From Schmidtea nova (taxonomy: Eukaryota), in contig CM097882.1 of the NCBI GenBank assembly GCA_044892505.1, forward strand, positions 87,172,001-87,215,698: a stretch of 43,698 bases of DNA, given 5' to 3'. The notes under the pieces are model-generated. The model saw nothing but the letters and a program-made list of their open reading frames with translations. It had not been told where the DNA came from and did no database searches. Of this stretch, positions 2,686-25,119 are shown piece by piece (the stretch's first letter is position 1; every line of letters starts with the position of its first letter). Position numbers and translations under genes: made by a program.

Positions 2686-2775
2686 TCTACAACAATATTT
2701 ACATCAATTTCCCCATATTTTTGATTTTTTCTGGTTCTTTATTTACACGTATTTACACAATTTTCCGCTTATTCA

Positions 2776-3708: not shown

Positions 3709-6700
3709 TTATAACTTTCTGATTCTCCTCGTTATCGTCGTGTTCCTTGGCGTGTAATAGGTTTCGCACCTTTCTTGTGGATTTCCTTGTGTATCCACTT
3801 CTTCAATTGCACACACTTCGTATTCTGCGTTTGTTTTCAACTTCCTCATTTCTACCTCGATTATTTCTCTTTTGTCATTTGATGTCTTTTGACAATTTCG
3901 TGGAGACTTTCCCTCCTTGTTTGGTATTAATTTCCAACAGATTTCTAGGACCTTTTTATGGATCTTCCATATTATCAGAGTTGATGACTCTGGTTCGTTT
4001 TCTATTGTCGTCCTTTCCGTTGTTGCCGGTTGAATTCTCTGACTGTTGGTTGTCGTGGTCCTTCTTGACTTTCTTTTCCTCTGTCGACTTCTTCCCATTT
4101 CGATCGTTCTTGTTCCGTTAATTTGCTCTGGCGTCTTGTATAGTTTACATTCCAAGCTTCTTTGTATTATTTCTCTTATTCTTCGGATTACGCAAATTTC
4201 ATATGCTTGTCCGACTTCGAATCCATTTAGTTGAAACGGAATTCCTCGTTCTCTCGTTCTGCATTGCGGTAGTACGTGACTGGTCGCTACTCCGATGTAT
4301 TTTCTCCAACACATCCCAATTGTTCTTCGACCAATGTTTTTTATCTCCACGGTTACTACTTCATTCTTAATCGTTTCTTGGTCTTGTTTCCTTCTTTTTG
4401 GGAACTCAATTATCTCCTTTGCTTGGAACACTTTACACTCGCTTGTTCCTGGTCTGTTTCCGTTTGCTGCTTTTTCCATGAGACATAGTTCACATGTTTT
4501 CTCTGTTTCTATTTCAGTTATCTCTATTTCTTCATTTGTCTCTGCTTCCCGACTTTCTCTTGTCTCGCTGATTCCAATTACTTCATTGTTTCGTCCCCAA
4601 CATCTTCCATTCGTTGTTCGTTGATCTTGGATGTTTACTAACGTCATCACGCTGATATCTATGTCCTCCATGATTCTCTTAATGAGGATTAATATTAATG
4701 CTACACATATCAATTCTGGTTGGAATGTTAATTTTCCCGCTGGATTTTTGGTTATTCTTTCTTTCTCTGTTCGGTTTCTGATTCCTTCTTCTGCTTCGGT
4801 TTGATTCTTCCCTTTCTCTGATTCCACTTCTGATCTTCTCGTTGTCTCTTCGCTTCTTTTTCCAATCCATTTCTGTATTTTCAGCGCTTCTGTTGCTTTA
4901 TATAATTGACATGCAGTTACTTGAGGTGCTTTTGGTTCTCCTCTCTGCTTTATTGCGCATATTATGTATGACTTTTCTTTCTCTAATCCTTTGATTTGGA
5001 TGACGTCTCGCTTCAAGTCTGACAATATACACTTCAGCGTATCGTTTTTCCTCAGGTTTTCCTTCCAGCATATTCTTTCGTATACTTCGTTTCCTCTGAT
5101 TATTTCCAGCGTGACGTATTGTTTCTTGGCTTCTCCTTGTCCGATGATTGTTATCAATATCGCGATACACAACATTTCTGGTCTCAAAAGTAGACTTCCT
5201 GTTCGTTTTCCATAGTTCGCATGTTCGTCTTTTGTTCCACTGTTTTCTCGTTCTTCTGCTTCTCCTTTCTTGTCGTTTCTCGTTGGCTTCGGTTCTTCTT
5301 GTCTTTCTTTTTCATTATCCTCCGTTCTTTTGTTGTCATTGTCTTCGTTGTTCTCTTCGTTGTTGCTTTTGTCGTCGAAATCTCTGTAACCACCCCCTGG
5401 TCCTTTGAAAATGTCGTCCTCGACATTGATTTCTTCAATCAATCTTTCATACGCTTGAACCGCGAGTGTGCTAGACTCGAATTCACGTATCTCCATATCC
5501 TTGGATGGTTCTATGTTTTCTAGTCTATTTTGCTTGATTGTTTCTTTGGCCTTTGCCCACTCATTCACATATTTTCTGAACAAGTCTTTCCATCTTCCCG
5601 TTCGTTCCTGTTCCTTTGGGTTGTTAGTAAATTTCAAATCTCTTCTCTTCAAGAATTCTTCAACTATCTCTGGCTTTTTGTGTCTTAGCAACGCGCTTCT
5701 GATACACCAATTCTGATTTTGTTCCATATGGTCATTGATCTTGAATGCCGGTTCCTTGGTGATCGGATTCACCCATGTTAGTAATGCTCTTGTTTTTTCT
5801 ACGTCGTGTATCATTACTGTCAGACTGAAATTCTTTACGTTATTTGCCAGGTATTCGATATCATCTTGTTTCTTGATGGACTTTATGAACTTGATCATCT
5901 CGAAGTTGTTCCACTGTATTGCGATATCTATGATGGAATTATTCTTTCCATTTTTCCCTTCGATTTTTGCTCCTGCTTCGTATAATTCACTTAGCACTTT
6001 AAAGTTCGTCTTCTTTCTTGCTGCGATTATCATGATTGTATCTCCGTTATCATCAACCATATTCATATCTGCTTCGCACTTGACCATCGCTTTCGTTATT
6101 TCCAGCACTTCGTTTTCTTTCTTTCGACGTAATGCCCAGTGTATCGGCAATCTCCCATCCTTTGATAATAGGAATGCCACTGGCATTTGATTCTTGATCG
6201 TTTCTATGTCACTCTCGTTATAATCCCCTTGTGCATATCTGTGCACTCTCTCTGTAATTGCTCCTAGTATTCCCAACGAGCTTTTATTCTCCTTGAATTT
6301 CGATAATTTTTCCTGCGCTTTTGCTACGATTGCGTCTAATCTCTCTTGATAATCGGCTTTTGCATTGAACAACACTGCCTTGCTTCTTATTCGTGTTTGC
6401 ATCTGTTTCATCCGTTGGTCTTGATACACTGCTTGTCTGAAGAATTGTCCATACTTCAATGCTTCCACCAGCTCTTTATATCTCTTGCTTATTTCTTTGT
6501 GCTGCTTTTGGATGTCATAGAAATGTTCGAAGCTCATATCCGGATTCCATTGTTTATCACACCATTTCTTGATTAATCCGAATAGTTCCTTCTTTCGGTC
6601 ATCCAACTTGTATTCTCTTGGGTTTTCGCTAACCCGTAGCGTATCTCTCGCTATCAACACTGCAAGTGTTTTTGGATCGTATGTTACCTCTAGTAGATGT

Positions 6701-9700
6701 TTCAGTAACGCATTTTCTCCCCTTGTGAATACTTCATTACAATTTACGACCCACGAATCTCCTTCTGGTCGTTTCCATTTTAGCAATATTCTCCAGGTTT
6801 TACTGTTCTTTACCCCGATTGCTTGTTTCATGATCGATCCTCTAGTTAGTTCATCGATTTCCCACGTGGCGTTTTCTGTGATATACTTAAGTAATCGGTG
6901 ATTTGCTCTATCGATTGCATGATTCAAGAATGTTCGTCCTTCTTTATCTTTTGCCATCCAACTCGATCTGGTGTTTCCGAATAGCTCGACTATTTCCTCA
7001 TCTCTTCCATGAATCGTCATCATCATAAGTGGAGTGATTCCTTCCCAATTCACTTTGTCAATTTCTCCTCCACCTTCGAGTATCATCTCTACGATCTCTT
7101 TCACTTTTTCGTTCCCACTGTGCTTGACTGCATTGTGCAACGCTGTGTTACCGTCTTTGTCTTGTAGATTCAATGTTTGAGGGATTTCCTCTAGCAGCGT
7201 TCTTGTTATTGGATGTGCTGTTCTATCCTTCGCATACTCCATTACATTCTTTCGAACTTCTGTCAATATATTGAAATCGAACCACCATTTCCATTCTGGT
7301 ATAATTTCTCTGGTCCTCTTTGCCAGTTCTTTGATGTCTATTGCTTCTCTTCGGTTGTCTTCTAGACTTGTTTGCGGCTTTTGTTGTACTCGCAACATAC
7401 TGATTCTCGCCGTCTGTGATCTTGTCATTACCCGTTTTTCTGGTAATCGAGTTGCTGTCTTTGGTACTTTTCTGCATCGACATGTATTCACGTATATTGG
7501 TCTTACCAATGGATTGTTCACCAATCGTACTCGCACATTATTTTCATTTACTGTTGTTATTTCATATGGCCCCTTGCCTGGTCGTTGGAGTTTCTTGACC
7601 GTACCGGGTATTATCTCTGGTGTCTCAATTATCACCCAATCTCCAACTTTTAAATCATGTGCTTTCACATTCTTTTTCTGGTCATGTAGATCCTTGTAAC
7701 TTTCTTGATAGAACTTGATGTTTAGTTCCGCCGTTTTCCAGATTTCCTGCATTCTTTCTTTGAACTTTGTAACGTAATCGTCAAAATCCATGTACTGCGA
7801 TAATGGTGGTTGATATTCTAAATCGATCGGTAAGTTGCAATCTCTTCCGTACATCAGTTGAAATGGACTTAGCTTTGTTGTCGCATGTATTGACATTCTG
7901 TATGCCATTAAACACAAGTTGATATACTCGTCCCAGTCAGTCTGATGTTTGCTGACGTAATTTGACAACATGCGTATCAATGTTCCATTGAATCTTTCTG
8001 TTTGTCCGTTCGTTTGTGGATGGTATGGGGATGTTCGTAATTTCGCAATTCGGAAGTAATTCGTGACTTCGTCTAATATTTCACTCATAAAATTTGTTCC
8101 TTGATCCGTTAGGATTTTCTTTGGTGTTCCGTATCTGCAGCATATTTCTTCCACCAATATTCTTGCGACTGTTTTCGCCTTTTGATCCGGTATTGCGAAT
8201 GCTTCTGGGAACTTTGTTAGATAGTCCGTGACTACTAATATGTACTGATTTCCTTTTAAACTTTCCGGCAATGGTCCAACTACATCCATTGCTATCGTCG
8301 CCATAGGTTCTGCAGGTATTGGCATTGGTTTTAGTGGTGTTTTCCACTTCGTTCCGACGTTCTTTCTTGTCGCACAGGTTAAGCAGTTCTTTATCCATTC
8401 CTTCACATCATCTTCCATGGTTGGCCAAAAGTACTTTTGTCTCAGTCTCCCGATTGTCTTTTTCGCTGACATATGTCCGCCTAATTTTCCGTCATGATAT
8501 TGAGTCATGATTTCCTTTCGTCTATTCGCAGGTAAGCACATTAATCTTCGTTCTCCATCTTGTATCAATAACCATCCTTTTTCCATCACATATCTATGTT
8601 GATATTTCTGCATATGTTCGCGCAACGTTTGGTTCTTGCCGAATATTTCTATTTCCCTTTCTTTCAAATACTTGCTGATCAATCCCAACTCCTCATCTTC
8701 GAGTTGATCTTTCCTTAGTTCGCTGAAATCCAAATCTTCCGCTATTAATGCACATATTTTTAGAGCATTCAGGTTCACCAATTCTGGGAATGTAAATCTT
8801 GACATGCAATCCGCGTTTGCATTTGCTTTTCCTGCTTTAAACTTTATGAATGGCGAGTATTCCTGCAACTGCATCGCCCAACGCATCAATCTACTTGATG
8901 ATTCTTTGTGTTGACCTAACCATACCAATGGTTGATGATCCGTCGTGATATATATTTCATGACCCCACAATAGGTATTTGAAATGCTTGATTGCCAATAT
9001 TATCGCATAGGCTTCTCTTTCCGTGACTGAGTAATTCCTTTCATGTTTCCTGAATGTTCGACTGTAATATCCGATCACTCTCTCTTTGCCTTCTTCATCG
9101 AATTGGCCTAGTACTGCTCCTGCTGCGTATCCACTTGCATCTGTTGCCAACAGAAATGGCTTCTTGAAATCTGGATGGACCAATATTGGTGCTGTAATCA
9201 GCTTGTCTCGCAATGTCTCGAATGCTGCTTGTTGCTCTTCTCCCCATACAAACGACATATCTTGTCTTACCAATTCTTGCATTGGCTTTGATATTCCTGC
9301 ATAGTCCTTGATAAACTTTCGATAATATCCACACAATCCCAAAAATTTTTGTATTTGAGTCACTGTCTTTGGTGGTGGACATTCTTTGACTTTTTCGATA
9401 TTCCTTGGATCTGGTTCTTTTCCTTTTGCTGATACAATGTGACCTAAAAATGTCACTTTCTCTTTTGCCCAATCGCACTTTGACGGCTTTAATTTCAGTT
9501 TCCATTGCCTCAATTTCACGAACACATTTCTGATATCTTGTAAGTGGTCTTCAAATGTTGCGGAGTAGATCAATAGATCGTCGATGTACACCATGCATTG
9601 TTTTATGCCATGTGTTACGAAATTCATGCATCTCTGGAATGATGCTGGCGCGTTTGTTAACCCAAACGGCATTTTCTTGAATTGGTACAGATCTCGTCCG

Positions 9701-10875
9701 ATTGTAAATGCTGTCTTTTCTTTATCCTCGTCCTTCATTTTGATCTGCCAATATCCGCTTTTTAAATCCAGTGACGTGAAATAAGCTGCTCCTTGTAAAG
9801 TCAACAACATTTCGTTTATGTCTGGCAGTGGGTACGTGTCTCTTTTCGTAACTGCGTTCAACCGTCTGTAATCGATACAGAATCTCTGAGTTCCATCCTT
9901 CTTTTTCACCATCACCACTGGGAATTGCCAGGGTGAGCAACTAGGTTCGATGACCTCCGCATCTAACATCTTTTGTACCTCTTCTTCTGCCACTGCTTTT
10001 TGAGCTTCTGCCAATTTATATGGTCTTAATGCGATTGGCGTCTCGTCCGTCAATGGTATCGTATGTAATGTTACATCACATGTTCCCAAATCCAAATCTG
10101 ATGCTGCGAATATATCTTGATACTCCATCAACAGTTTCTGTAACTGTTCTTTTTGTTGTTCGTCTAACAACACACTGTCGATTTTCCATGGTAATTCGTC
10201 TTTGCTTTTCTCATTCTTGCCTGGTATTTCGATTTCGGACATGGGTGTCAATTTGCCCAATCTCTCATTCTCGTAAATTATCTTGTCCTCTTCGTCAAAA
10301 TTCACCAGATTAATTGGTATCTCACCTTCTTGGTTTATCGTAACCAATTCTCTTGCCATTGGTAATTCCTTCTTCGCTTCGAACTTCTTACTTGGTTCGA
10401 ATATCATATCTCCCTTTATTGTTGAATCGATCTTGACATAACACATCATTTCATGTCTCGCTGGCACTACTATTTGTTCCGCACTTGCCACTTTAACTTT
10501 CATTCTGCAGATTTTTCCTGTCCTATCTTTTAGCTTCATTGCTCCTAGATCAATTACGATTTCCTTGAACAGGTCTGGCATTAGGTCAGTTCCAATAATA
10601 CATGGTACACTCAGCGATGGTATTACAGCGATGTACGTGTTGATTTCTGCACCTCGATGCTTAATTTTTACAAACCATCTTCCGGCTACTTCTACTGTCT
10701 CCTGACTGCACGCGATTACATGTACATTCGTCTTCTCGATTTCCCCTTGGTTTTTCTCTGGTATATAATTAATGTCGATCGCCGAAATATTCGCGCCTGT
10801 ATCGATCTTAGCTTCAATTTCTCTTCCGTTTATTTCTACGGTTGTTGTTAAGATTGGTCCCATGTTTGTGGACAT
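3709..10875 (-). CDS. pol: Pol polyprotein, 2388 aa: aspartic protease, dUTPase-like linker, RT, RNase H, integrase (HHCC, DDE, GPY/F), then ankyrin and FN3-like extensions
   Basis: AKIDTGANIS (PR); LDLKSGYWQI, MPFGLTNAP, YIDDLLI (RT); LATDAS, EREAYAII, TDHQPL, NANADCMSR (RH); YHDGKLGGH..CLTC, AMDVVGP, TDQG, NGQTERFN, GKGPYEI (IN). Confidence 0.98.
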   Translation of the reverse strand: MSTNMGPILTTTVEINGREIEAKIDTGANISAIDINYIPEKNQGEIEKTNVHVIACSQETVEVAGRWFVKIKHRGAEINTYIAVIPSLSVPCIIGTDLMPDLFKEIVIDLGAMKLKDRTGKICRMKVKVASAEQIVVPARHEMMCYVKIDSTIKGDMIFEPSKKFEAKKELPMARELVTINQEGEIPINLVNFDEEDKIIYENERLGKLTPMSEIEIPGKNEKSKDELPWKIDSVLLDEQQKEQLQKLLMEYQDIFAASDLDLGTCDVTLHTIPLTDETPIALRPYKLAEAQKAVAEEEVQKMLDAEVIEPSCSPWQFPVVMVKKKDGTQRFCIDYRRLNAVTKRDTYPLPDINEMLLTLQGAAYFTSLDLKSGYWQIKMKDEDKEKTAFTIGRDLYQFKKMPFGLTNAPASFQRCMNFVTHGIKQCMVYIDDLLIYSATFEDHLQDIRNVFVKLRQWKLKLKPSKCDWAKEKVTFLGHIVSAKGKEPDPRNIEKVKECPPPKTVTQIQKFLGLCGYYRKFIKDYAGISKPMQELVRQDMSFVWGEEQQAAFETLRDKLITAPILVHPDFKKPFLLATDASGYAAGAVLGQFDEEGKERVIGYYSRTFRKHERNYSVTEREAYAIILAIKHFKYLLWGHEIYITTDHQPLVWLGQHKESSSRLMRWAMQLQEYSPFIKFKAGKANANADCMSRFTFPELVNLNALKICALIAEDLDFSELRKDQLEDEELGLISKYLKEREIEIFGKNQTLREHMQKYQHRYVMEKGWLLIQDGERRLMCLPANRRKEIMTQYHDGKLGGHMSAKKTIGRLRQKYFWPTMEDDVKEWIKNCLTCATRKNVGTKWKTPLKPMPIPAEPMATIAMDVVGPLPESLKGNQYILVVTDYLTKFPEAFAIPDQKAKTVARILVEEICCRYGTPKKILTDQGTNFMSEILDEVTNYFRIAKLRTSPYHPQTNGQTERFNGTLIRMLSNYVSKHQTDWDEYINLCLMAYRMSIHATTKLSPFQLMYGRDCNLPIDLEYQPPLSQYMDFDDYVTKFKERMQEIWKTAELNIKFYQESYKDLHDQKKNVKAHDLKVGDWVIIETPEIIPGTVKKLQRPGKGPYEITTVNENNVRVRLVNNPLVRPIYVNTCRCRKVPKTATRLPEKRVMTRSQTARISMLRVQQKPQTSLEDNRREAIDIKELAKRTREIIPEWKWWFDFNILTEVRKNVMEYAKDRTAHPITRTLLEEIPQTLNLQDKDGNTALHNAVKHSGNEKVKEIVEMILEGGGEIDKVNWEGITPLMMMTIHGRDEEIVELFGNTRSSWMAKDKEGRTFLNHAIDRANHRLLKYITENATWEIDELTRGSIMKQAIGVKNSKTWRILLKWKRPEGDSWVVNCNEVFTRGENALLKHLLEVTYDPKTLAVLIARDTLRVSENPREYKLDDRKKELFGLIKKWCDKQWNPDMSFEHFYDIQKQHKEISKRYKELVEALKYGQFFRQAVYQDQRMKQMQTRIRSKAVLFNAKADYQERLDAIVAKAQEKLSKFKENKSSLGILGAITERVHRYAQGDYNESDIETIKNQMPVAFLLSKDGRLPIHWALRRKKENEVLEITKAMVKCEADMNMVDDNGDTIMIIAARKKTNFKVLSELYEAGAKIEGKNGKNNSIIDIAIQWNNFEMIKFIKSIKKQDDIEYLANNVKNFSLTVMIHDVEKTRALLTWVNPITKEPAFKINDHMEQNQNWCIRSALLRHKKPEIVEEFLKRRDLKFTNNPKEQERTGRWKDLFRKYVNEWAKAKETIKQNRLENIEPSKDMEIREFESSTLAVQAYERLIEEINVEDDIFKGPGGGYRDFDDKSNNEENNEDNDNKRTEDNEKERQEEPKPTRNDKKGEAEERENSGTKDEHANYGKRTGSLLLRPEMLCIAILITIIGQGEAKKQYVTLEIIRGNEVYERICWKENLRKNDTLKCILSDLKRDVIQIKGLEKEKSYIICAIKQRGEPKAPQVTACQLYKATEALKIQKWIGKRSEETTRRSEVESEKGKNQTEAEEGIRNRTEKERITKNPAGKLTFQPELICVALILILIKRIMEDIDISVMTLVNIQDQRTTNGRCWGRNNEVIGISETRESREAETNEEIEITEIETEKTCELCLMEKAANGNRPGTSECKVFQAKEIIEFPKRRKQDQETIKNEVVTVEIKNIGRRTIGMCWRKYIGVATSHVLPQCRTRERGIPFQLNGFEVGQAYEICVIRRIREIIQRSLECKLYKTPEQINGTRTIEMGRSRQRKRKSRRTTTTNSQRIQPATTERTTIENEPESSTLIIWKIHKKVLEICWKLIPNKEGKSPRNCQKTSNDKREIIEVEMRKLKTNAEYEVCAIEEVDTQGNPQERCETYYTPRNTTITRRIRKL
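3738..5075 (-). other. Four Cys-containing FN3-like repeats in the pol-frame C-terminus
   Basis: Repeating CW..(L/F)xxxxxY/CxxC..CxxY/FxT pattern: GLEKEKSYIICAI..CQLYKAT; EIETEKTCELCL..CKVFQAK; GFEVGQAYEICVI..CKLYKTP; KLKTNAEYEVCAI..CETYYTP. Signal-like segments precede repeats 1 and 2 (PEMLCIAILITIIGQGEA; PELICVALILILI). Confidence 0.65.
5870..7165 (-). other. Two ankyrin-repeat clusters (about 6890-7165 and 5870-6165) in the pol-frame C-terminus
   Basis: DKDGNTALHNAV, NWEGITPLMMM, DKEGRTFLNHAI; SKDGRLPIHWAL, DDNGDTIMIIAA, NGKNNSIIDIAI. Confidence 0.9.
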
Positions 10876-10914
10876 AACCGCTATCGTGTGCGTGTCTTCT
10901 AACGAGTCTACGCT

Positions 10915-13900
10915 TTAACCTCGTTTTACTTTGCATCCTTCTGGAATTATCGGGTATATACTTGTCATCGGCATCATCTGCATCATATTCGGCTTCGCTT
11001 TGTATATCGGTTCGTTATACATTGATTGGGGTGGAGCACTGTATCTCCAATTCTCAACTGCACTCTTTTCGGTATACTGTGGAATCTGGTTTATATTCGC
11101 TTGTCCTCCTTGATCGTCATCGTCGTCATCATCATTGCTTGAGTCATCTTGTGTTCGATATCCCTTCACTCTTTCCCATAATCCTTTCCTTTCTTTCTTG
11201 AGTTGTCGTCTTGCTTGCTCGTCTTGCATTATCTTTTTGAATTTCCTTCCGACATCTTCATTTGTTCCTTTCATTTTAGCAAGTATCTTCAACAATCTTT
11301 TTATTCGATGTATGTTTTTTGAGTGTCCGTGCAACACCATTGTTTTCGCAAGGAATGGTAAAAACCCTACTACCATTTTCCAATTCACTTTCTTCTCTCT
11401 CTTGTAGATATCGAAGCACGCTAACATTTGCGTTATTATCACTCTGACAATTTGTATTATCAATATCACTCCCAGTATTCCAGCCATCATTTGTCCGAAT
11501 ATCAGGAATCTTCCCCACATTGCTTTCATCATATTTTCTGTGGCTTTCTTGAAATGTGCTGGTGACAATAACAGTTCATAATTCGGTCCTTCTCGATAAT
11601 CCGTTCCTCCCGTTATCGTTACGATATTTGACAGTAATGCTTCTCTTCTTGCCGGGAATAATATATTCTGTCTCGCCGCTTCCAAATCTTTTGGGCTATA
11701 TATTCCGTTGTTTGAGACATCTACGTCGCTGAACTGTCTATCCTTTGACAACTGCATCAGTTCAAATTCTCTTGGTGCTAATACTTCGGTTCTTCCTGGG
11801 AACATTACCCATTTGCCATCTGGTTTCTGATAAAGCGGTCCGTATGCGTTACTACAGTTGAATGGATTTGGTTCGAATCCTGGTGGATTGATGATTCTCG
11901 TCACCGGTTGAACGTATCGTACTTTTCCTTTGTAATCGATTTCTAGTTCGTTTGTACAAGTTCCTGGTTTCAACTGCGTTGTTGCTGCTAGCGATGCATG
12001 TGTCTTTTCGCAAATGTATACGTACATTGCTTCTCCGACCACTCTTCCGAAATGTCCTTCTCTCAGTGGTAATAACGGCATCGCGCTATCTGGATTCGTA
12101 ATCGCTACGGCCAACTTTGTCTTTAATATTTCTCGATTCAGTATACAATCGTTGTTTATCAGATCATAGTACACTTTTTGCAATGAGGCTTGTCCTCTAT
12201 GGAATAAGAAATCCATTTTATTATTCACATACAAGTGTAGCTTGATATCCATTGTGTCGATCTTGGGTTTCGCATTCGGCACTTCTTGCTTTGACACGTA
12301 TATTCCTGGATAGTTTGTTTCGTATACCGTTGTACTGCACTTAAGGGTTGCTTTCCCTTTTATGAATCTCATGCCCACATCCTGATTTGTGGTTATCAAC
12401 ACTGTTGGTGTGGTTCTCATTTCTATCCGTTTCTCTCTATGATCCGGTTTCAATTGTCTTTTATTCTCTAAAGCTTCTTTGAGATGCTTTGCTCTAGCTT
12501 TGTCATCATCGTCCTCTTCTTGGAATGTTTTTCCTTGAATTTCGTCGAACTTTGCTCCTTGTAGCAGTTGTAATTGACATTCGTTCACCTTTGGTTTATA
12601 CACCAATGTTGACATTCCCGTTTGACACATGCTCCTGTCAATTTTACACATGGATAACGTTTTCATTTCTCCCGTTGTTGGTTCGAAGAATGCTTCGTAG
12701 CTTTTCAGTTCGACTATATACGTATCCATCACCACCAAGTTGGTTGCAAGTACTCCGAATATCGGGTAGGTTTCTCCTTGACAATACCCTTCTCCTCCCG
12801 TAATCCGTCCTGCTACATAGTACGTCTGCTGTAACATCATTCCTGGTTTTCCTTTTATCTTGATTTTATCCCTTGTTGTTACTTCTCCATGTTTGAACAA
12901 TGCTTCGCAGTCTTCTCCTTGCAACACGATTGGTTCTCTTTCCGTTCCTGGCATGACAATTGCTGAATAATGCCCTCTCCCACAATAGAATGCGAATCTC
13001 GTCTTCTGCACCTTGCATTCATTCACCATTGTCTTTATTAGTTCTGCTTCTTGATACACGTGGTACCATTGTTCCTTTTTAATCTCTCTCAACTCTACTG
13101 GAGATGCATCTTTGCATTGCTCCGTACCTCTCAATGAATACTTTTCTCCCAATTTCATTTGATCACAATCAAATACTTCGAACGTTGTTACACCTTCTGT
13201 GCTTAACAACCATACTAACATCATCATGATTATCGAGTTTAAATTCAACGTCGATCTTCCATTTCCTTGCATCGTTTGTCTATTCTCCATTTCTCTCAAT
13301 ACTCCTTCGAGTTTCTTTCTCATCACGTTAGACCCTTCTTTTGTCTGGTTCTCTTTTATGAACTTTTCCCATCCTCCTTTCCTGAGGATATATGGTTCAA
13401 TTTCTTTCTCGATAATCATCGCCGTATTTTTAATATGTCTTCCCATCGGACTTGACTTCGGACTTCCTCGGCTTAGCGTTAACAAATTGTATATCGTATA
13501 CGAGATTGCTACCAGATATTTGCTGTCCATTTCTGCTCCGTTGAGTAGCCTTTTTATTAACCTCGTGGTTCCTTGCCAATCTAGATGATTCGATTTTGTT
13601 TTTGCTTTGATTAATTCTGGCATAATCGGTGCTATCGCATTGTGTAGCATCTTTGCCTTTGTACTAGGTTCGTTTATCCGCCACAAATTCTTTAATTCCG
13701 GGTCGATTATCGCTAGTACATCCATTATCGTTTTGGTGAGCCATTCTTCTCCTTGACAAACTTGATTCTCCTCTTTGCCTCTGATCTCTGCGATTTTATC
13801 CAATTTCTTCAAGCAAATCTCCCATTGCTCTTGTCTCCTTTCTTCCCTTGTCTTTGGAATTGCTGTTGTTGGGTCTATCTTTGGTCTTCCTCTTGGTCGT

Positions 13901-14001
13901 TTTTCCATTCCAGTTCCGGTTTCTACAAATCTCGTTGCTCTTCCCGTTTCTTCCGTAACATCTCTTCCTTCGTTTGCTCGTTGTTCTAACCATCTTTTCA
14001 T
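10915..14001 (-). CDS. env: AT-hook plus Bcl-2-like domain fused to a chuvirus-G-like class III envelope glycoprotein (1028 aa)
   Basis: Env motifs FEVFDC..C, FYCG, DCILNREILKTKLAVA, GHFGRVVGEAMYVYIC, CTNELEI..QPVTRII, CSNAYGPLY..W, GIYSPKDL..ILFP, TM WGRFLIFGQMMAGILGVILIIQIV. N-terminal KRPRGRPK; BH2-like YILRKGGWEKF. Confidence 0.85.
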   Translation of the reverse strand: MKRWLEQRANEGRDVTEETGRATRFVETGTGMEKRPRGRPKIDPTTAIPKTREERRQEQWEICLKKLDKIAEIRGKEENQVCQGEEWLTKTIMDVLAIIDPELKNLWRINEPSTKAKMLHNAIAPIMPELIKAKTKSNHLDWQGTTRLIKRLLNGAEMDSKYLVAISYTIYNLLTLSRGSPKSSPMGRHIKNTAMIIEKEIEPYILRKGGWEKFIKENQTKEGSNVMRKKLEGVLREMENRQTMQGNGRSTLNLNSIIMMMLVWLLSTEGVTTFEVFDCDQMKLGEKYSLRGTEQCKDASPVELREIKKEQWYHVYQEAELIKTMVNECKVQKTRFAFYCGRGHYSAIVMPGTEREPIVLQGEDCEALFKHGEVTTRDKIKIKGKPGMMLQQTYYVAGRITGGEGYCQGETYPIFGVLATNLVVMDTYIVELKSYEAFFEPTTGEMKTLSMCKIDRSMCQTGMSTLVYKPKVNECQLQLLQGAKFDEIQGKTFQEEDDDDKARAKHLKEALENKRQLKPDHREKRIEMRTTPTVLITTNQDVGMRFIKGKATLKCSTTVYETNYPGIYVSKQEVPNAKPKIDTMDIKLHLYVNNKMDFLFHRGQASLQKVYYDLINNDCILNREILKTKLAVAITNPDSAMPLLPLREGHFGRVVGEAMYVYICEKTHASLAATTQLKPGTCTNELEIDYKGKVRYVQPVTRIINPPGFEPNPFNCSNAYGPLYQKPDGKWVMFPGRTEVLAPREFELMQLSKDRQFSDVDVSNNGIYSPKDLEAARQNILFPARREALLSNIVTITGGTDYREGPNYELLLSPAHFKKATENMMKAMWGRFLIFGQMMAGILGVILIIQIVRVIITQMLACFDIYKREKKVNWKMVVGFLPFLAKTMVLHGHSKNIHRIKRLLKILAKMKGTNEDVGRKFKKIMQDEQARRQLKKERKGLWERVKGYRTQDDSSNDDDDDDDQGGQANINQIPQYTEKSAVENWRYSAPPQSMYNEPIYKAKPNMMQMMPMTSIYPIIPEGCKVKRG
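13360..13800 (-). other. Bcl-2-like domain
   Basis: EPYILRKGGWEKF matches the BH2 pattern; MDSKYLVAISYTIYNL lies about 50 aa upstream and aligns to the BH1/alpha5 pattern (NWGRIVALFYF) with NWGR degenerate; helical composition; C-terminal hydrophobic segment. Confidence 0.65.
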
Positions 14002-14016
14002 TTCTTGAGTAAACTA

Positions 14017-14235
14017 TGGTTGTTCTTGCTCGTCTTCGGAATCGTTTACCATTTCTATGACTACCTCCTGTTCCACTCCTTGATCGTCGATTTCTGCTGG
14101 TGACGTTACTGGCATCTCTATTATTCTGTCGAAAATATTCGCCGTTGGTTTTTGAGTTAACTTCGTTAATTCTTCTATCGCTTCGTCACTGTCTGTTAAT
14201 ATTTCGTCTACGTCATACGCTTCTGGCGGTGTTCT
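14017..14235 (-). other. 73-codon open acidic linker, in frame between ORF2 and the Bcl-2/env ORF, bounded by two TAG codons
   Basis: Manual translation RTPPEAYDVDEILTDSDE...DSEDEQEQP; TAG at 14236-14238 and 14014-14016, then FTQE and ATG 14001, all in one frame. Confidence 0.75.
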
Positions 14236-16474
14236 CTATCTCGTTTTGATTGGTGTTGTCCTTGCTTGTCCCGAACTTGTTCCTGGGATCATTGCTGACT
14301 TCATCGGACTTGGTGTACTCATGCTTCCTTTCGGTTTCTTTTCCTCTTTAAACTTCAGTGGTTGACCCACTATCTGTGCCACTGTTAGCGTATTCATTAG
14401 ATCCAATTGCACTGGTGTCAGCCAGATTTCCAACTTGTTATCCAACGATCGTCCTTGATGTTGCAGGTGGAATGGTAGTTCGTACATCAGTTTCTCTTTA
14501 ACACTTTTCACTTTTTCTGTTAGCATCACCCAAAACTCTTCTTTTCTCTGATTTGGATACATTATCCTCAAATGTATTTTCTGTGGCGTTTCCTCCGCAA
14601 ATTCTTTGTTTCTCCACTTTTTTATTACATTGTCTAGTTGCTCTGGACACCACTCATTAACTCTCTTGTATTCTGCTATCGCTTTAGCTGCTTTTCTCAA
14701 GTTCGTCATGTCTTCTCCATTTGCGATTATAAAATCTGCTAAGCCTTTTATTGTTTGTCTTTTTCCCCGAGTATTTCCTCTCAACAGTTCTATTAATTCA
14801 TCCGTTTTCTGTTTCTCCAATTCTGCCCATATTACTGCAGTTTCTGGTCCGTCTAAGTCCGTTGGTAATAACCTCCTTGTTACCATACATATCCGTTTCG
14901 TATTCGATTCATATCTGTCTTCTCCTTCTGGATCTTCTTCATACACGCCTCTTTTCACTTTCCAACATTTCTCTTTGTTATCCCATTGCTTCTCTACTGG
15001 CGTCAATCGTCGTCTGTTAAGATCCAATTCTCCCAATATTGTCTCCCATTCTGGCTTCATCTGCCAGTTCCGATAGATTTCTACTATCTGCCTCAACTTG
15101 CGCATAACGTCCTCTTGTCGTTTCTTTCTCCTTTCTTCATCTCTTGGTGTTGCTCTTGGCACATCATCCATTCTGATGACGTGTATTGTCTGGGAATTGT
15201 CCCATATGCCGATTTTATACGCTCGTCTTTCGTCACGTTCATTCAGTAGATGTTCTTTGTATTTTATCGCAATGTCATCCTCGAATTCATCTTCCCGTTC
15301 TCGTTGTAATATCGTCTCATTGATGACATCTACTATTTCTCCCACTTTACTATCTGGTATTACCTCAATTTGTCTTGTCTCTTCGTTCGGTAATCTCACA
15401 GTAATCATCAGATCTGATACCTCTCCTCGTCTAAACATTTCTTTTCCCATCTTTGCGATTAGCTTGTCCGTTTTGAAATTTGAATGTCTCGTTTGACTTG
15501 TATCTCGTATGTTCTCGATACACTGTTTCAAATTCTCATACTCGCTTTTTGTCAATTCCTTTCGATGTTTCTTGATTTGTTGGATGATCTGTTCTATCAT
15601 CGTATTCAAATTCTCTGCCAAGATTCGTTCCTTTGCCTCTATCAACTGAGGTTTTATTCTCATCTCATAACACGTATTCGCTTCTTTGACGATTCCTTGT
15701 AAGTTCTCTTCCTTCTTGGTGTTGCATATTGATAACGTTGTTATTTCTCCTGGCCATATGCCTGTGTCTATCATATGCGTTCCTTTTTTCACTAATCCGT
15801 TTTCCGAATATATGAACTTGTCTTTGTACGAGCTTCCCAATCTGTCCTCAACCCATCTGTAGATTCCATCTGTCATTGGGTTCTTTATCCAGATTCTCGG
15901 TGAACACTCGTTTATCCATATCTGTATTATGTATTCGTTGAGTGGTTCTTTCAATAACTTCTCTATGAACTCTTGTATTACTCTCACTTCTCTTTCTTGT
16001 AACCACTCTTTATACTTCATCTGCCATATTGCTCGTATGAACTTTCGGTATCGTTTCTTGTCGATAAACTCCTCGTTATGGATTACTTCCAACACGTTAT
16101 CCATCAGCTTCTGAATTTCGTCTTCCTTTACCGACATCGTTTCTATCGTCTCGACTACTTCCATCTTTTTATCCTCGTTTTCCGGTTCCTTTAGCATGTC
16201 TCCTGCCAGACTGCTAACTTCGCTGTCGTCTTCTTCATCTGACAACTCTTGTCTTGGGTGTCTCAGCATCCCAATATGCGCGGTTGGTCTCACTTCGTTT
16301 TTGCTAACTTCCTGCGTTAGTTCATTCTCGTTTCCCGTTATTTCAGCTTTTCCCATTCTTTTCTCCAACTCATCTATTTCTTCAAACCGTCTTCGTCTTA
16401 TTTTCCCTTTAAATATCCGACTGATCCGAGTTTGATGTTTCACTGGTGGTGGGAGTTTCTCCGGTTCCACCTCT
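14236..16474 (-). CDS. ORF2 (gag extension) with two ubiquitin-like domains, about 15170-15410 and 14380-14580
   Basis: MITVRLPNEETRQIEVIPDSKVGEIVDVI and IHLRIMYPNQRKEEFWVMLTEKVKSVKEKL..LQHQGRSLDN resemble the ubiquitin beta-grasp pattern ([35 protein letters not shown]). Joins the gag frame if the 14-nt duplication at 16461-16488 is removed. Confidence 0.65.
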
Positions 16475-18729
16475 CCGGTTCCACCTCTCTGATGATCATC
16501 ACGTTCATTTTCGTCTCCGTTACTCCCATATCTTCCCATATATCAGTCATCTTCAACTTTACTTCCGGTAAATCCTCTGTTTGTAGGAATGCTTCTCTGG
16601 GTAGTTTCGTCACTCCCGGCATCATCTCATTTACTTTATTGAACAATCTTCCCACTTCTTCTTTTACATTGTATTTGAATCGCCACACGTGATCATTCAG
16701 CATGATCACCAACATTCCTCTTTGTTTGATTCTCACTTCTTCTTCTTGATTCACTTCTTTTTCTGTTTCTTTTTCTATTTCTGTTTCTTTTTCTACTTCT
16801 TCAACTTTTTGATTCTGCTCTGCGGTTTCTACTTCCTGATTCATTTCTTCTTGTTTCTGCTCTTCGTTTCTTTTCTCTTTAACTTCTAACTCGTCTGACT
16901 CATCTTGCTGCTTCTCTTCCATCATTGCTCGCATCATGTTGATCCTTGGGTTTCCCTTTTTTAACAGTTGTAATCGTTGTTGCCTGACTTGTTCTTCTTC
17001 TCGTCGTACTCTGGCCCATTCTTGATTATGTTTCTGTTGGCTTTCTCTATTTTCTCTTTCAGCCTCAGCTTCTATTAACTGGATCATGTTTATCTTTGGT
17101 TGAGCAGCTTGCTGGCTTCCCTTTGCCATGCTTTCGATTATCTCGTGTAATCTGGATACCTCCTGTCTCAACTTGGCCTCTTTCATACTGGCTTCGTTTG
17201 CACTGCTATTTGGGTTGTTCCGTTGTTGACCCTGATTCCCATAACTTGATCGATTTCCGTAATTCTGTCTATTTCCACTGTTTGACCAACTTCTCTGTTG
17301 ATTACACTCTCTTGACATGTGTCCCGTTTTCCCACATGTGTAACACATTTTCCCGTAACATCGATTCTCTGAGTGACCTTTTTGTCCACACAGTTTACAG
17401 GCTACATTCTGAAAACACTCTTGTTGCCAATGTCCGTTTTTCCCACACGTCTGACATTGCCTATTCTGCCTGTCATTGTAACTATTTCCTCCACTCGTGT
17501 TCACTGTGATATATCCATTATTTTTCCTCGCTGGCGGTTCTTTGAACAATCTCTGCGAATGGGGAATACTTTGATTCATGTTTCTTTTTCCTTGTTCTTC
17601 ATCTTCTGTCGTTTTTCCCATTACCGCCGTAATTCTCATGTCGTTCATTGCCATATGCAATTCGAATAGGTTGGCTGCTTCTAACGCTTCATCTACTGTT
17701 TTACATCCTTTGCATCCCACTTGTGCTCTGATGTCAGGTCTCCTGAGACCTCGTACGAATAACGCTGTCATCAATTCTTCGTCTACTGGGCTTCCTCTAT
17801 TGAATGCCAGTTTCGCCAACTTTCTTAATTCGCTTGCGTATACCGCATTTGACTCATTTCTCCTCTGTTTTCTTGCTGAGAACTCATCGAACGCTTCTTT
17901 CAACACTTTATTTATCCCAAACGTCTGTTGGAAGAACTCCTTGATTGCTTCCCACGTTCTGGGTGGATTACTTCCCGATCTCTTTTCAATATACAGATCC
18001 AATGCGCTATCTTTCAAGTATAGCGGGATTCGATTTGCCAACGTTTCTGCACTTTATCCGCATATATCCACGAATATGCCAAATTCCTTTAGAAACGTGT
18101 CCAATCTACTGGCGTCTCCATCGAATGGTTCGCCCTTGAATTTTTCTCTCAGATCCTCTCTGTGTTCACTCATCCCGATTCCACTGTCTTGGAATACTGT
18201 ACTAGTTTTCTTTGCTTCTATTTCACCACTTGTTTCTGGATTCAACTCTTCTTCTTCAATACTCTCTGTTTCGTTATCTCTTGATTCGCTTCTTGTTCTG
18301 TTTTCACTAACTAGTTCACAGTCTATCGTTTCTACTTCGTTTCGTACTTCTGGATCCTCTGGGGTTTCTTCTTGGTTCTCTTTATTACTCGAATTATCGC
18401 TGATCTCTGCTGGTTTGTTCTTCAGTTGCGCTGCTTTATTTCTTGGCCTTGTCTTCTTCGCTGTTTTTCTTTCTTCTTCTGTTAGGATTGGTATTATACC
18501 TGTCCTTGTTTTGCGTTCCGCAATCTTGTCTATTACTCAACTTCTTATATTCTCAACTGATTTTCTACTTCGCTTTTGCTTTGCTTCTTCTTCGATTTGT
18601 TTCCTTTGACTGCTCTGACTGCTAGATTGCCTGGAATTGCTTGATTGATTTGTTTCCTTAAAACAAATAATCACTTACACGATACGTCCCCGTTATCGTG
18701 TTTCTCGTCCCTCTCACGGGTGTAGTCAT
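16440..18729 (-). pseudogene. gag: gag (capsid plus three CCHC knuckles), disrupted in this copy by TGA 18537-18539, TAA 18054-18056 and a 14-nt duplication
   Basis: GEPFDGDASRLDTFLKEF..ICG*SAE..IPLYLKDSALDLY..TWEAIKEFFQQTF..RKQRRNES..YASELRKLA; CQTCGKNGHWQQEC, CKLCGQKGHSENRC, CYTCGKTGHMSREC. The frame is continuous across both stops up to 18656. Confidence 0.9.
18657..18678 (-). promoter_or_regulatory. Consensus splice donor GTAAGT (18678) and in-frame acceptor (18657): putative 22-nt intron or major splice donor
   Basis: Minus strand ATG(18729)-MTTPVRGTRNTITGTYR|GTAAGTGATTATTTGTTTTAAG|GAA ACA (ETNQ..) joins in phase 0 with gag. Confidence 0.5.
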
Positions 18730-20979: not shown

Positions 20980-21438
20980 TTACAAGTACACTGTTACTTT
21001 CTCGGATACGGGAAAATTGCACATAGGACATCGTTCATTTATTTTACAGTCATTACAGAATCGAAAATGCCCACACGGCAGCAACATTATCTGTATCTTA
21101 TTTATTTCACAGATGTAACACGTCAGATACTGTCTCGTATATTCGGTTGTCGTTCTTATCCACTCATCGTGTTTTGTTGCAATCTGTCGTTCTAGCCTGT
21201 GGCATTCGATATTCATTTCAGGGTTGTTTAATCTTTCTCTGTACCATTTGTATCTCGTTGCTGTATCAACTGTATTCTTATTCTCGCTTATGCTCATCAT
21301 CATTTCGGCTCTTTCTGTGTTGTTTGTCGGTTCGTGATATCTTCCTACCTCGAGTCGTTTTAACTTTCTCATTATTATCTCCATTGTCTCGTTGTTTGTT
21401 TCAAAAAACGTTTGCATTTCTTTTATTTTGTTCTCCAT
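20980..21438 (-). CDS. C-terminal IAP/Mdm2-type C3HC4 RING protein (152 aa, no BIR); putative E3 ligase
   Basis: CYICEINKIQIMLLPCGHFRFCNDCKINERCPMCNFPVSEKVTVYL at the extreme C-terminus; same A-rich codon bias as the element. Confidence 0.85.
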   Translation of the reverse strand: MENKIKEMQTFFETNNETMEIIMRKLKRLEVGRYHEPTNNTERAEMMMSISENKNTVDTATRYKWYRERLNNPEMNIECHRLERQIATKHDEWIRTTTEYTRQYLTCYICEINKIQIMLLPCGHFRFCNDCKINERCPMCNFPVSEKVTVYL

Positions 21439-22370
21439 CCCCTGAATGAATTACCATTAATTTCTGTCGATTTTTATTTATTATCTATTATTTTTATTCT
21501 GTGGTAGCCCTACTGTTCGCTTTCTGTTGTTCTGTTTCGCGTCACTACTTGCGTATCCCCCCGTGTTCTTGAATGTCGCCCCGACATGATCATTGTTAGT
21601 TGCTCACACTCATACCATTTTCATACACACTTTTCAGCATACTTTTACTTTACGTCATGCATATTTTTCATCACTTTTCATACTGTTATTCCACATACTA
21701 TTCATCATACTTCATTCATCCTCATATTTTCACATTCGTACTTTCATTCCCATGCATACTTTTATCATGCTCATCAATCTCATTATTTTACACTCATACT
21801 TTTATTTATTATTTTTCAACCCGATTCATTCTTGCTTCAGGACCCACAAACCCTCTGTTATCATTTACTTTACTTTTCCTCGCTAAATTCAATTTCATCC
21901 CGGTTCAGGCGCTCTAACACTGTCCGCAGATATCGAATTCACTTTTCCCACAAAAATCGATTTAATCCCGGCTGAGCCCCCAAATTTATGCTGGTGTGTT
22001 GGTTTGATGGACAACTGAGATCATTAAGATTTTATATGTTAGGGTGATCTCGCCAACATAAAAACATTCCCCCGCTGACACCCATGATGTATCCCTAACT
22101 ACTCATCATGTTGGTGCTGTGTCAACGTTGTGAAATGACAAGGCAGGTGAGCAACCTTGCGGCTACTATTCCCTTGTTTATTCACGGGTCCACCACTACC
22201 GATAGAAGGTGTTTGTGGATTTCTTTCGGTCCCACTTATGCTCTTTCCTTTTGTCCTAGGGTGATTTAATTTTTAGCGCATCTGCAGCTTTAAATGAACC
22301 AGGTTTTCCTTATGTTTAATTCTCATACATACTTCAAACACCCAAGACAAGTCATTCATCCAATATACAT

Positions 22371-22934
22371 TTATTTATGACTTAACAACACTGAAGGTCT
22401 AATCACATTTAGGAGTTCTTGTTCAGAGAGCCCACTGAGCAGATCCATCTCTATGCCCAGGCGATCAGCATATGCCCGTCGCTCTCTCCGATTTTTCGCT
22501 CCAAGGCGATTCCTTCGCTTTGTCCGTTTTGAGCCTTCTGGATTTCTCGTTGTCGACTCGATGGTCGTGGTTGCGACTTCATCGGTTTCTGTTTGGGTAC
22601 TCGTAGTTACCGATACCGAATCCGCCCATCGGTTAAAGGTACTCGCCCTGATCACTGGGCGTAATTGCTCTGAGATGAATTCTTGAGTCGACACTCTCAA
22701 GTAATTAGATAGCTCCAATTTCAAGGCTGCGACCTCTCGAGCCTGATCGTTGGCTACTTGTTCGGCTCTGTATCTGGCTTGCAGGATGGCTTTAACTCTT
22801 TCGGGATTAAACAATGTTATCTTGATCCTTTGATGTTCGTCGTTCAACTGTCGTAAACGACTTTCCAGGACTCGGGACCGTGCCTTAGGTTCCTTTGCCT
22901 CTTGCTTGTAATTTCGTTTTGGATTCTCGTCCAT
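22371..22934 (-). CDS. Unknown accessory protein: coiled coil, Thr-rich linker, Arg-rich motif, Leu-rich tail
   Basis: Open frame; probable start at ATG 22934 after the acceptor CTAAT..TTTCCCAG|AC; KRTKRRNRLGAKNRRERR. Confidence 0.6.
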   Translation of the reverse strand: MDENPKRNYKQEAKEPKARSRVLESRLRQLNDEHQRIKITLFNPERVKAILQARYRAEQVANDQAREVAALKLELSNYLRVSTQEFISEQLRPVIRASTFNRWADSVSVTTSTQTETDEVATTTIESTTRNPEGSKRTKRRNRLGAKNRRERRAYADRLGIEMDLLSGLSEQELLNVIRPSVLLSHK

Positions 22935-23164
22935 GTCTGGGAAATGTATCATTAATTAGGGTATGCATGATTTGTTTGGTTTCTTAGTCACCATTTTATT
23001 GTCAAACAACTACACTCTATCCTCACTCATTCACATGCATTCAAAAACCAAAACAAAACCCTTTTGAATGGATACATATATTTTAATTTACAACAGATGT
23101 TCTTTCTTTGGAGAGGTCACTCTCGCGATCAATTGTATGGTCGTAACTTCTGATCGGCAGGGTT

Positions 23165-24871: not shown

Positions 24872-25119
24872 GTAAGTTTTTCTTTGTCATCAATTTATTT
24901 TATTTTATTTTTGTTTTAGGTCTTCGGTGACATCCGCCCACGCGCTGTCATATTCAGATCTTATCTGCTTCGCATGAGTGAGTTCTTGAGTTTTATTTTG
25001 TTCTGATTAATACTTTATTTCTTTTAGATGTTACCGCTCATTTGCTACTTTTTATGCTGGTAATTTATTTTGTTGTTATTTTTTGTAGCTTTATTTTATT
25101 GATTGTATATTATTTTCAG
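24872..25119 (+). other. Cluster of short GT-AG intron-like segments in the leader of the + strand relic
   Basis: GTAAGT..TTTTAG 24872-24919 (48 nt), GTGAGT..TTTTAG 24978-25027 (50 nt), GTAATT..TTGTAG 25060-25088 or ..TTTCAG 25119. Confidence 0.5.

What the first reader, a model, noticed from the sequence alone, without database searches (positions are those of the whole stretch)
13190..14001. AT-hook and Bcl-2-like domain whose tail anchor doubles as the Env signal peptide
The order is AT-hook KRPRGRPK, a helical domain with degenerate BH1 (MDSKYLVAISY) and a BH2-like motif (YILRKGGWEKF), a hydrophobic IIMMMLVWLLSTEG, then mature Env starting near VTTFEVFDC (seen). Bcl-2 proteins are tail-anchored (established). 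Inference: signal peptidase cleavage yields a membrane-anchored viral Bcl-2 plus Env, coupling envelope expression to death control.
Basis: partly seen in the sequence, partly recalled or inferred. Interest (0 to 1): 0.82.

Follow-up and report, generated by a model that had tools for sequence, protein, structure and literature searches.

The report
Bcl-2 domain joined to retroelement envelope
In a broken copy of a giant Burro-type retrotransposon, a domain predicted to have the Bcl-2 (cell-death regulator) fold sits just before the envelope protein, an order already published, and the short hydrophobic stretch between them likely serves as the envelope's internal signal sequence, which would leave the Bcl-2 part tethered to the ER membrane.

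Summary
The motifs are there and the Bcl-2 call holds. The AlphaFold model's top 35 structural matches are all Bcl-2-fold chains (best Z 12.5; first unrelated 5.3), and sister families match PF00452. The locus is a 29.1-kb Burro-type gypsy element, and the order BCL2, then env, then protease in one polyprotein is published (PMC6431247). The Met at 14001 is not a gene start. It follows a nonsense codon private to this copy, and 30 of 137 scored copies keep a frame of 5,075 aa or more. Six lineages here and one metagenome protein share Bcl-2 / 32-52 aa / short hydrophobic helix / small residues / x[YFW]DC env start, so an internal signal sequence is likely (about 0.85; no SignalP run). It would anchor the whole Gag-to-Bcl-2 precursor at the ER; a free Bcl-2 also needs the element's protease. 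Against simple death control: the BH1 NWGR motif is replaced in all seven, and the AT-hook precedes Bcl-2 in only 3 of 6 lineages. Verdict: known element and domain order; fold support and junction topology are modest additions.

The parts
21988..25146 (-). 5' LTR (3,159 bp); its 99.46% identical partner lies just left of the window (L118:6044-9202), giving a ~29.1-kb element
20980..21450 (-). upstream accessory ORF with C-terminal C3HC4 RING
   Evidence: PF13920 E 7e-9
16440..18533 (-). gag with three CCHC knuckles; this copy has a frameshift near 16,470 and a stop within
14017..16473 (-). polyprotein stretch between Gag and the AT-hook (Ubl region of Burro by position; Pfam found no Ubl here); in-frame stop at 14236-14238
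14014..14016 (-). in-frame nonsense codon private to this copy; it is why the finding looks like a separate gene starting at 14001
13879..13902 (-). AT-hook-type motif KRPRGRPK (consensus recalled), ~38 residues before the Bcl-2 fold
13333..13767 (-). Bcl-2-fold helical bundle (~145 aa, model residues 21-165)
13498..13545 (-). BH1-equivalent segment; NWGR replaced by MDSK (TDSK in 29 of 30 copies)
13360..13398 (-). BH2-equivalent segment with GGW
13237..13332 (-). variable linker (~30 aa, low pLDDT) between fold and hydrophobic segment
13192..13236 (-). predicted internal signal sequence: 12-13-residue h-region plus polar c-region (TEG); candidate signal-peptidase site at or within 3 residues of 13191/13192
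11434..13191 (-). class III-type Env (PF24664): ectodomain from VTTFEVFDC, TM anchor at 11434-11496; only one N-glycosylation sequon in the ectodomain
3709..10914 (-). PR-RT-RH-IN, ankyrin repeats and further signal-like segments, same frame; this copy has stops at 10915-10917 and 3709-3711
1273..2703 (-). downstream accessory ORF: TRAF-like RING / zf-TRAF / MATH

Best explanation
This is the Bcl-2/Env junction of a Burro-type giant gypsy polyprotein: a domain predicted to fold like Bcl-2 is followed by a short hydrophobic helix that likely works as an internal, cleavable signal sequence for Env and would leave the upstream Gag-to-Bcl-2 precursor tethered to the cytosolic face of the ER. Shown: one frame for Gag, Bcl-2, Env and Pol in sibling copies; Bcl-2 homology; a conserved hydrophobic segment right before the env start; purifying selection. 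Inferred: the ribosome makes Gag...AT-hook...Bcl-2 in the cytosol; SRP takes the hydrophobic helix; Env threads into the lumen; signal peptidase cuts just before the VTTFEVFDC/x[YFW]DC start; Env's TM stops transfer, so PR-RT-IN return to the cytosol. The element's protease would then trim Gag away and leave an ER-anchored Bcl-2 domain, made one per Env. Its most likely job is to modulate host death or stress signalling at the ER, but probably not through the classic BH1 Gly-Arg contact. Odds per step: fold 0.97; internal signal 0.85; cleaved and stays anchored 0.55; modulates death or innate signalling in some way 0.55; does so by canonical BH3 binding 0.3.
For: Fold: AF2 on an 8-row alignment, pLDDT 62 (70-87 over most core blocks); VIA wide search, ranks 1-35 all Bcl-2 fold, best Bfl-1 Z 12.5, rmsd 3.1 A over 139 residues, rank 36 unrelated Z 5.3; all 45 Foldseek PDB rows listed are Bcl-2 family, best E 2e-3, none under 1e-3; alignment profile hits Bcl-xL at E 3.4e-7 over BH1-BH2; 7 of 8 alignment rows hit PF00452 at E<=1, best 3.9e-7. 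Polyprotein: four families each carry CCHC, GGW, env start, RT and IN in one frame of 5,079, 3,068, 2,992 and 3,393 aa. Signal: in 7 of 7 lineages an uncharged run of 10-19 residues sits 32-52 residues after GGW, with net charge 0 to +5 before it and at least two -3/-1 small-residue sites before [YFW]DC; the metagenome protein P0004 reads ...VAQA|ILGWDC; the PF24664 match begins at profile position 5 at this point in sister families. In families B and C exactly four hydrophobic segments alternate (signal, Env TM, post-IN signal, C-terminal TM), which puts Pol in the cytosol. Selection: signal pN 0.14/0.09/0.26 against linker 0.37/0.43/0.37; Bcl-2 core dN/dS 0.13 and 0.16 in two family pairs, pN 0.145 against pS 0.84 in the third. 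Lineages A and A' share an Env block 91-97% identical in DNA, bounded at ~13,185 and ~11,300, with 60-84% flanks: a swap whose left edge is the predicted cleavage site, so the hydrophobic segment travelled with the Bcl-2 side.
Against: No SignalP/DeepTMHMM run; hydropathy scales and the -3/-1 rule are recalled and crude. The window's h-region is marginal (best 19-mer KD 1.52, under the 1.6 cut-off), so after cleavage it could be degraded or released rather than stay as an anchor. NWGR is replaced in 7 of 7 (TDSK, TDNK, DKDK, NRDR, NREV, DKEV, SEAR; one family-C copy, L048, reads NWDR); PMC9027176 calls its Gly and Arg important for family interactions. Four of five AF2 models had pLDDT under 53 and the tail (179-221) is under 50. 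Family A has three post-IN hydrophobic segments and D one, so the tidy alternation is not general. This copy has four in-frame stops and a frameshift and cannot make the polyprotein itself.
Confidence: 0.6

Rival explanations
1. One reading: a classic anti-apoptotic viral Bcl-2 whose ancestral tail anchor was reused as Env's signal; it binds host Bak/Bax BH3 motifs and keeps Env-expressing cells alive.
For: Fold and BH2 GGW conserved. Host Bcl-2-like genes L063/L066 have a tail 28 residues after their BH2 tryptophan motif, near the 32-52 seen here. Poxviral Bcl-2s without BH motifs still bind Bak/Bax/Bim (DPV022; PMC11209288 passage). The element also carries RING and TRAF ORFs.
Against: NWGR lost in 7 of 7. 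An SRP-inserted segment means ER, not mitochondrial, location (established knowledge). The domain is buried in a Gag polyprotein. The origin of the segment cannot be told apart from Env's own signal, since free class III glycoproteins carry one at the same place (PMC13524379).
Confidence: 0.3
2. The Bcl-2 fold was repurposed as a structural leader or matrix domain: with the signal anchor it holds Gag at the membrane beside its own Env and the Env-tethered Pol, organising budding (as recalled for the foamy virus Env leader peptide and flavivirus/HCV capsid anchors). Death control is incidental.
For: Fixed position between Gag and signal in four polyproteins checked end to end, and before the signal in seven lineages. 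The core is conserved while the BH3-contact residues are free to vary. Element domains group apart from the 10 host fragments (support 92/94, one change), consistent with one old capture and long divergence.
Against: Tethering needs only the hydrophobic segment, not a 145-aa fold. GAG-ENV-POL elements are described elsewhere with no mention of Bcl-2 (PMC13524379: 0 hits for 'bcl'). The tree rests on 111 columns with long branches.
Confidence: 0.2
3. The domain acts like the poxviral Bcl-2-fold signalling inhibitors (A52, B14, N1, A46), damping NF-kB or TRAF signalling together with the element's TRAF-like and ankyrin products.
For: These proteins are among the fold matches (Z 5.6-7.5). They act without a canonical BH3 groove (recalled). 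The element encodes a full RING-zf-MATH TRAF and ankyrin repeats.
Against: Cellular and herpesviral Bcl-2s match better (Z 10-12.5). BH2 GGW is kept, unlike in those poxviral proteins (recalled). No direct evidence of a partner.
Confidence: 0.2
4. The hydrophobic segment is an uncleaved first transmembrane helix, so Env stays covalently joined to Bcl-2 as a two-pass protein.
For: PMC13524379 says gB-type Envs are flanked either by a signal peptide and a TM or by two TMs. Families D and E have 19-residue uncharged runs.
Against: Short h-regions in A, A', B, C and P0004 (10-15 residues), small-residue c-regions in 7 of 7, a textbook AQA site in P0004, and the Env swap boundary at this site.
Confidence: 0.15

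Closest known systems
Burro / GYPSM1 giant gypsy retroelements of dugesiid planarians (PMC6431247, section 7 read in full; Grohme et al. 2018 and Jurka 2007 known only through it)
   Same: ~30-kb element, ~5,000-aa ORF1, Gag with three CCHC knuckles, BCL2-like domain then env then PR in frame, ankyrin repeats, MATH/TRAF, thousands of copies reported; here 1,457 first-look candidates, 137 scored.
   Different: TRAF/MATH is a separate downstream ORF here (in the polyprotein or upstream there); no BIR or dUTPase hit in the ORFs scanned; LTR 3.16 kb. The section does not mention an AT-hook, an internal signal sequence, loss of NWGR or a fold test.
GAG-ENV-POL errantiviruses with HSV gB-type Env in Nematoda, Bryozoa, Platyhelminthes (PMC13524379; abstract and passages)
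   Same: Env between gag and pol; class III-type ectodomain flanked by a signal peptide or TM and a C-terminal TM.
   Different: No Bcl-2 or Burro mention in the main text (0 hits each); their LTR filter (5-14 kb apart) excludes elements of this size.
Cellular and DNA-virus Bcl-2 proteins (Bfl-1, Bcl-xL, Hydra Bcl-2-4, KsBcl-2, ASFV A179L)
   Same: Helical bundle superposes at Z 11-12.5; BH2 W...GGW kept.
   Different: 9-16% identity; no NWGR; embedded in a retroelement polyprotein; anchor followed by a lumenal ectodomain instead of a short basic tail.
Flavivirus capsid anchor / HCV core-E1 internal signal / foamy virus Env leader (recalled; only a search listing seen)
   Same: One hydrophobic segment serves as C-terminal anchor of a cytosolic product and as signal for the next glycoprotein.
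   Different: Here the anchored product is a Gag-linked Bcl-2 fold, and Pol follows Env in the same chain.

Membership tests
Bcl-2 fold | Helical bundle around a central hydrophobic hairpin, superposing on Bcl-2 structures | tested here: met
   ranks 1-35 Bcl-2 fold, Z 12.5, rmsd 3.1, 139 aligned
Bcl-2 family (PF00452) | Sequence match over the curated cut-off | tested here: inconclusive
   window domain: no hit; sister families B and C pass the 31.4-bit cut-off in some copies; window linked to them by profile
Bcl-2 family | BH2 motif W-x(3-4)-GGW | tested here: met
   GGW invariant in 8 of 8 rows; the first W is Y in the window lineage
Canonical pro-survival Bcl-2 | BH1 NWGR with the Gly-Arg BH3 contact | tested here: not met
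   replaced in 7 of 7 lineages; role of motif from PMC9027176 passages
Canonical pro-survival Bcl-2 | Binds BH3 motifs and blocks Bak/Bax | not testable with these tools
   needs binding and cell assays
Tail-anchored proteins | Single TM at the extreme C-terminus, inserted after translation | tested here: not met
   segment is followed in frame by Env and Pol; it could become C-terminal only after cleavage
Cleavable signal sequence | Basic/neutral n-region, 7-15-residue h-region, small residues at -3/-1 before the mature start | tested here: met
   7 of 7 by rule-based check with recalled scales (D and E runs are 19 long); no SignalP available
Cleavable signal sequence | Actual translocation and cleavage | not testable with these tools
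   needs microsome assay or N-terminal proteomics
AT-hook | Core RGRP flanked by basic residues (consensus recalled) | tested here: met
   30 of 30 copies, lineages A' and B; no Pfam AT-hook hit; absent before Bcl-2 in C, D, E
AT-hook | Binds AT-rich minor groove | not testable with these tools
   no assay
Burro elements | ~30 kb, long LTRs, ~5,000-aa ORF with Gag(CCHC)-BCL2-Env-PR-RT-RH-IN-ANK | tested here: met
   29.1 kb, 3,159-bp LTRs; 5,079-aa frame with this order in a sibling copy
Burro elements | Ubi/SUMO-like domain before BCL2; BIR; dUTPase-like | tested here: inconclusive
   weak ubiquitin hit only in family D (E 0.026); none of the three seen by Pfam in the window ORFs scanned; the paper used HHpred
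Burro elements | Sequence identity or RT phylogeny with Burro1-4/GYPSM1 | not testable with these tools
   reference sequences were not returned by any search

The most novel reading that the evidence does not exclude
Burro-type elements captured a host Bcl-2 gene once and turned it into the leader of their envelope: its hydrophobic tail became Env's signal sequence, so each polyprotein delivers a Gag-tethering, ER-anchored Bcl-2-fold protein one-to-one with Env and with Env-tethered Pol. This would be a retroelement that assembles from a single membrane-woven chain and edits host death signalling through a surface other than the BH1 groove, with swappable Env cassettes joined at the signal-peptidase site.
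Probability: 0.3. Interest if true: 0.72.

Novelty: new member of a known kind. Interest (0 to 1): 0.4.

Why it matters
The 2019 review left Burro's BCL2-like motif and in-frame env as annotations awaiting tests. This work adds structural support for a full Bcl-2 bundle, shows it is under purifying selection in several families, and gives a concrete processing map (signal at the Bcl-2/Env border, Pol returned to the cytosol) that can be tested with small fragments. A Bcl-2 in an RNA-based retroelement that has lost NWGR would extend viral Bcl-2 biology beyond dsDNA viruses, and may bear on how these elements persist in animals that control tissue size by cell death. The element type and domain order themselves are not new.

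Tried and rejected
Single-sequence searches of the domain found nothing: PDB phmmer, Pfam, ESM Atlas, protein collection at near length (0 of 607 candidates) and longer (0 of 1,901); these blanks reflect divergence and are not evidence of novelty. The env profile found only 3 proteins among 5,030 candidates and none in viral contigs (0 of 254 pattern matches), so no free-standing viral glycoprotein was available to compare signal peptides directly. The 50%-representative library search could not be run, so the range of this junction outside this genome rests on one metagenome protein. hhalign of the element profile against one host Bcl-2 was weak (probability 5%, E 0.008). The summed Hessa scale did not separate element segments from host tails (2.87 against 2.92), so I draw nothing from it. 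Within-family dN/dS (0.01-0.07) is set aside because the 30 copies were the best protein matches of 137. No RNA holder was listed; contigs of four runs from one study showed no splice-like joint that would give the domain its own start (contigs cannot show absence), and a crude acceptor scan upstream printed none. No complex prediction was sent: no host BH3 ligand could be identified with confidence in the exon fragments, and Bcl-2:BH3 is a textbook pair. Earlier-findings look-ups returned nothing. Rejected: a stand-alone gene starting at 14001; GGW as a chance match; a host Bcl-2 gene (it lies inside LTR-bounded repeats).
Full report
What is there. Window bases 1 to 25,146 hold most of one minus-strand LTR element. 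The 5' LTR (21,988-25,146) has a 99.46% identical partner just left of the window, giving about 29.1 kb. Pfam finds, in order, a RING ORF, Gag knuckles, a Monjiviricetes-type fusion glycoprotein (PF24664, E 4.8e-73), protease, RT, RNase H, integrase, ankyrin repeats and a separate TRAF-like ORF. This matches the Burro elements of dugesiid planarians as described in PMC6431247 (section 7 read in full): a ~5,000-aa ORF1 with a BCL2-like motif, env between BCL2 and PR, ankyrins and MATH/TRAF. That the host is such a planarian is my inference from this match.

The finding is a piece of a polyprotein. The genome search gave 1,457 candidates and scored 137; by my count 30 of the 137 rows have an open frame of 5,075 aa or more, 3 of them with a stop listed at the match. 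Against one such sibling, the window aligns in a single frame from 16,473 to 3,256, with a frameshift near 16,470 and four in-frame stops. The stop at 14,014-14,016 is found in 1 of 30 copies, this one. So the ATG at 14,001 is an internal Met, and in the sibling the AT-hook, GGW and env start lie at residues 1,532, 1,706 and 1,773 of 5,079.

The Bcl-2 call is right. The window's domain alone finds nothing. A PF00452 search of the genome returned host genes and two further high-copy families (B, C) whose hits are followed by a hydrophobic segment and an env start; a PF24664 search added families D and E with the same layout. With lineage A' (L031) and one JGI protein (P0004) that makes seven lineages. 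In the 8-row alignment A1 (14-67% identity), 7 of 8 rows hit PF00452 at E<=1, the window being the miss. The profile hits Bcl-xL at E 3.4e-7. A profile without the window's lineage still picks out window residues 134-215 above all 500 shuffles. AlphaFold gave pLDDT 62 for the best model, 43-53 for the others. Foldseek's 45 listed PDB rows are all Bcl-2 family, though none reaches E 1e-3. The VIA search of 48,161 chains ranks 35 Bcl-2-fold chains first (Bfl-1, Z 12.5, rmsd 3.1 A, 139 residues), with the first unrelated chain at Z 5.3. Z 12.5 alone is borderline for a helical bundle by the tool's own note, but the unbroken run of one family and the independent sequence evidence settle it. The fold spans 13,333-13,767.

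It is a non-canonical Bcl-2. The BH1 NWGR positions read TDSK (MDSK in this copy alone), TDNK, DKDK, NRDR, NREV, DKEV and SEAR; one broken family-C copy reads NWDR. The Gly is lost in all. PMC9027176 (passages) describes the Gly and Arg as important for family interactions; PMC11209288 (passages) notes poxviral members without BH motifs that still bind Bak and Bax. So anti-death activity is open. The domain is under purifying selection: dN/dS 0.13 (D/E) and 0.16 (B/C), and pN 0.145 against pS 0.84 for A/A'. The seven element domains fall on one side of a branch against 10 host fragments (92/94; long branches, 111 columns), which allows one capture but does not prove it.

The junction. In 7 of 7 lineages an uncharged run of 10-19 residues begins 32-52 residues after GGW, with net charge 0 to +5 ahead of it and small-residue -3/-1 sites before the [YFW]DC that opens Env (scales and rule recalled). 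P0004 has a textbook AQA site. The segment is more conserved than the linker before it in 3 of 3 family pairs. An Env inside a Gag-Pol chain needs an internal signal and a stop-transfer helix (established knowledge), and this is the only strongly hydrophobic stretch before Env in each of the four whole polyproteins. In B and C four hydrophobic segments alternate neatly; A has five and D three. PMC13524379 (abstract and passages) already reports GAG-ENV-POL elements whose gB-type Env is flanked by a signal peptide or a TM, without mention of Bcl-2 or Burro. Between A and A' the Env block (about 13,185 to 11,300) is 91-97% identical in DNA while the flanks are 60-84%, with pS 0.31 against 0.84. 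That points to an Env swap whose left edge lies at the predicted cleavage site, though it may simply be where homology begins.

How it likely works. Gag, the intervening region, the AT-hook and Bcl-2 are made in the cytosol; the hydrophobic helix is likely taken by SRP; Env enters the lumen and is likely cut free; its TM returns PR-RT-IN to the cytosol. The upstream product would be a membrane-tethered Gag-to-Bcl-2 precursor, from which the element's protease would release an ER-anchored Bcl-2 domain. 'Tail anchor' is true at most by position after cleavage. Host genes L063/L066 have tails 28 residues past BH2, so descent from a Bcl-2 tail is possible, but so is descent from Env's own signal. 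The window's h-region is short (13 uncharged residues; 19-mer KD 1.52), so lasting anchorage is uncertain.

The AT-hook. KRPRGRPK is kept in 30 of 30 copies and matched in A' and B, which is far above chance. It is absent before Bcl-2 in C, D and E; C has a similar motif in Gag and D none in its whole polyprotein. It is therefore an accessory, perhaps a nucleic-acid or nuclear-targeting motif on the piece upstream of Bcl-2 (inference), and not a fixed part of the module.

Novelty. The element type and the BCL2-env order are published. Paper searches and in-paper look-ups showed no statement of an internal signal at this junction, of NWGR loss, of the AT-hook or of a fold test. Grohme et al. 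2018 was not held, and its extended data and the eLife supplements were not seen, so they may hold such annotation. Of the other papers listed I saw only search listings. Verdict: a new member of a known kind, with a testable processing model; interest 0.4.

Noticed in passing
window 11,300-13,185 against L031: Env block 91-97% identical in DNA between lineages A and A' while both flanks are 60-84%: a likely Env cassette swap bounded by the predicted signal-peptidase site and the start of the cytoplasmic tail.
   Followed up: partly
window 3,250-5,300 (-); L112:902-1717; L114:886-1554; L117:1643-2944: After integrase (and ankyrins) the polyproteins carry further signal-like segments and a C-terminal TM, i.e. 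a second predicted membrane ectodomain with no convincing Pfam match; family A has a duplicated signal-plus-domain unit.
   Followed up: partly
window 1,273-2,703 (-): Complete TRAF-like ORF (RING, zf-TRAF, coiled coil, MATH) downstream of pol, unlike the placements described for Burro.
   Followed up: no
window 20,980-21,450 (-): Accessory ORF ending in a C3HC4 RING between the 5' LTR and gag; no BIR hit.
   Followed up: no
window 22,371-22,955 and 23,165-23,788 (-); L118:6430-7844: Two open frames of 194 and 207 codons inside the LTR, present in both LTR copies, no convincing Pfam match.
   Followed up: no
L118:9490-9945 (-): Small accessory ORF before the 3' LTR with signal-like start, coiled coil and C-terminal TM; weak GP41 hit (E 0.003, below cut-off).
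   Followed up: no
L074, L068, L106, L107: At least four more high-copy element families with 2,992-3,401-aa single frames and the same Gag-Bcl-2-signal-Env-Pol order (three checked end to end); long accessory ORFs (649-828 aa) follow in B and C.
   Followed up: partly
L038-L046, L049, L057, L059, L063, L066: Host Bcl-2-family exons, several with altered BH1 (e.g. RWSR, HWSK, KWSH), suggesting an expanded divergent host subfamily.
   Followed up: no
window 19,034-19,465 and 20,089-20,301: Short tandem and dispersed repeats in the leader between the RING ORF and gag.
   Followed up: no
window 29,798-30,652: Very AT-rich 24/25-bp tandem array in host DNA outside the element.
   Followed up: no
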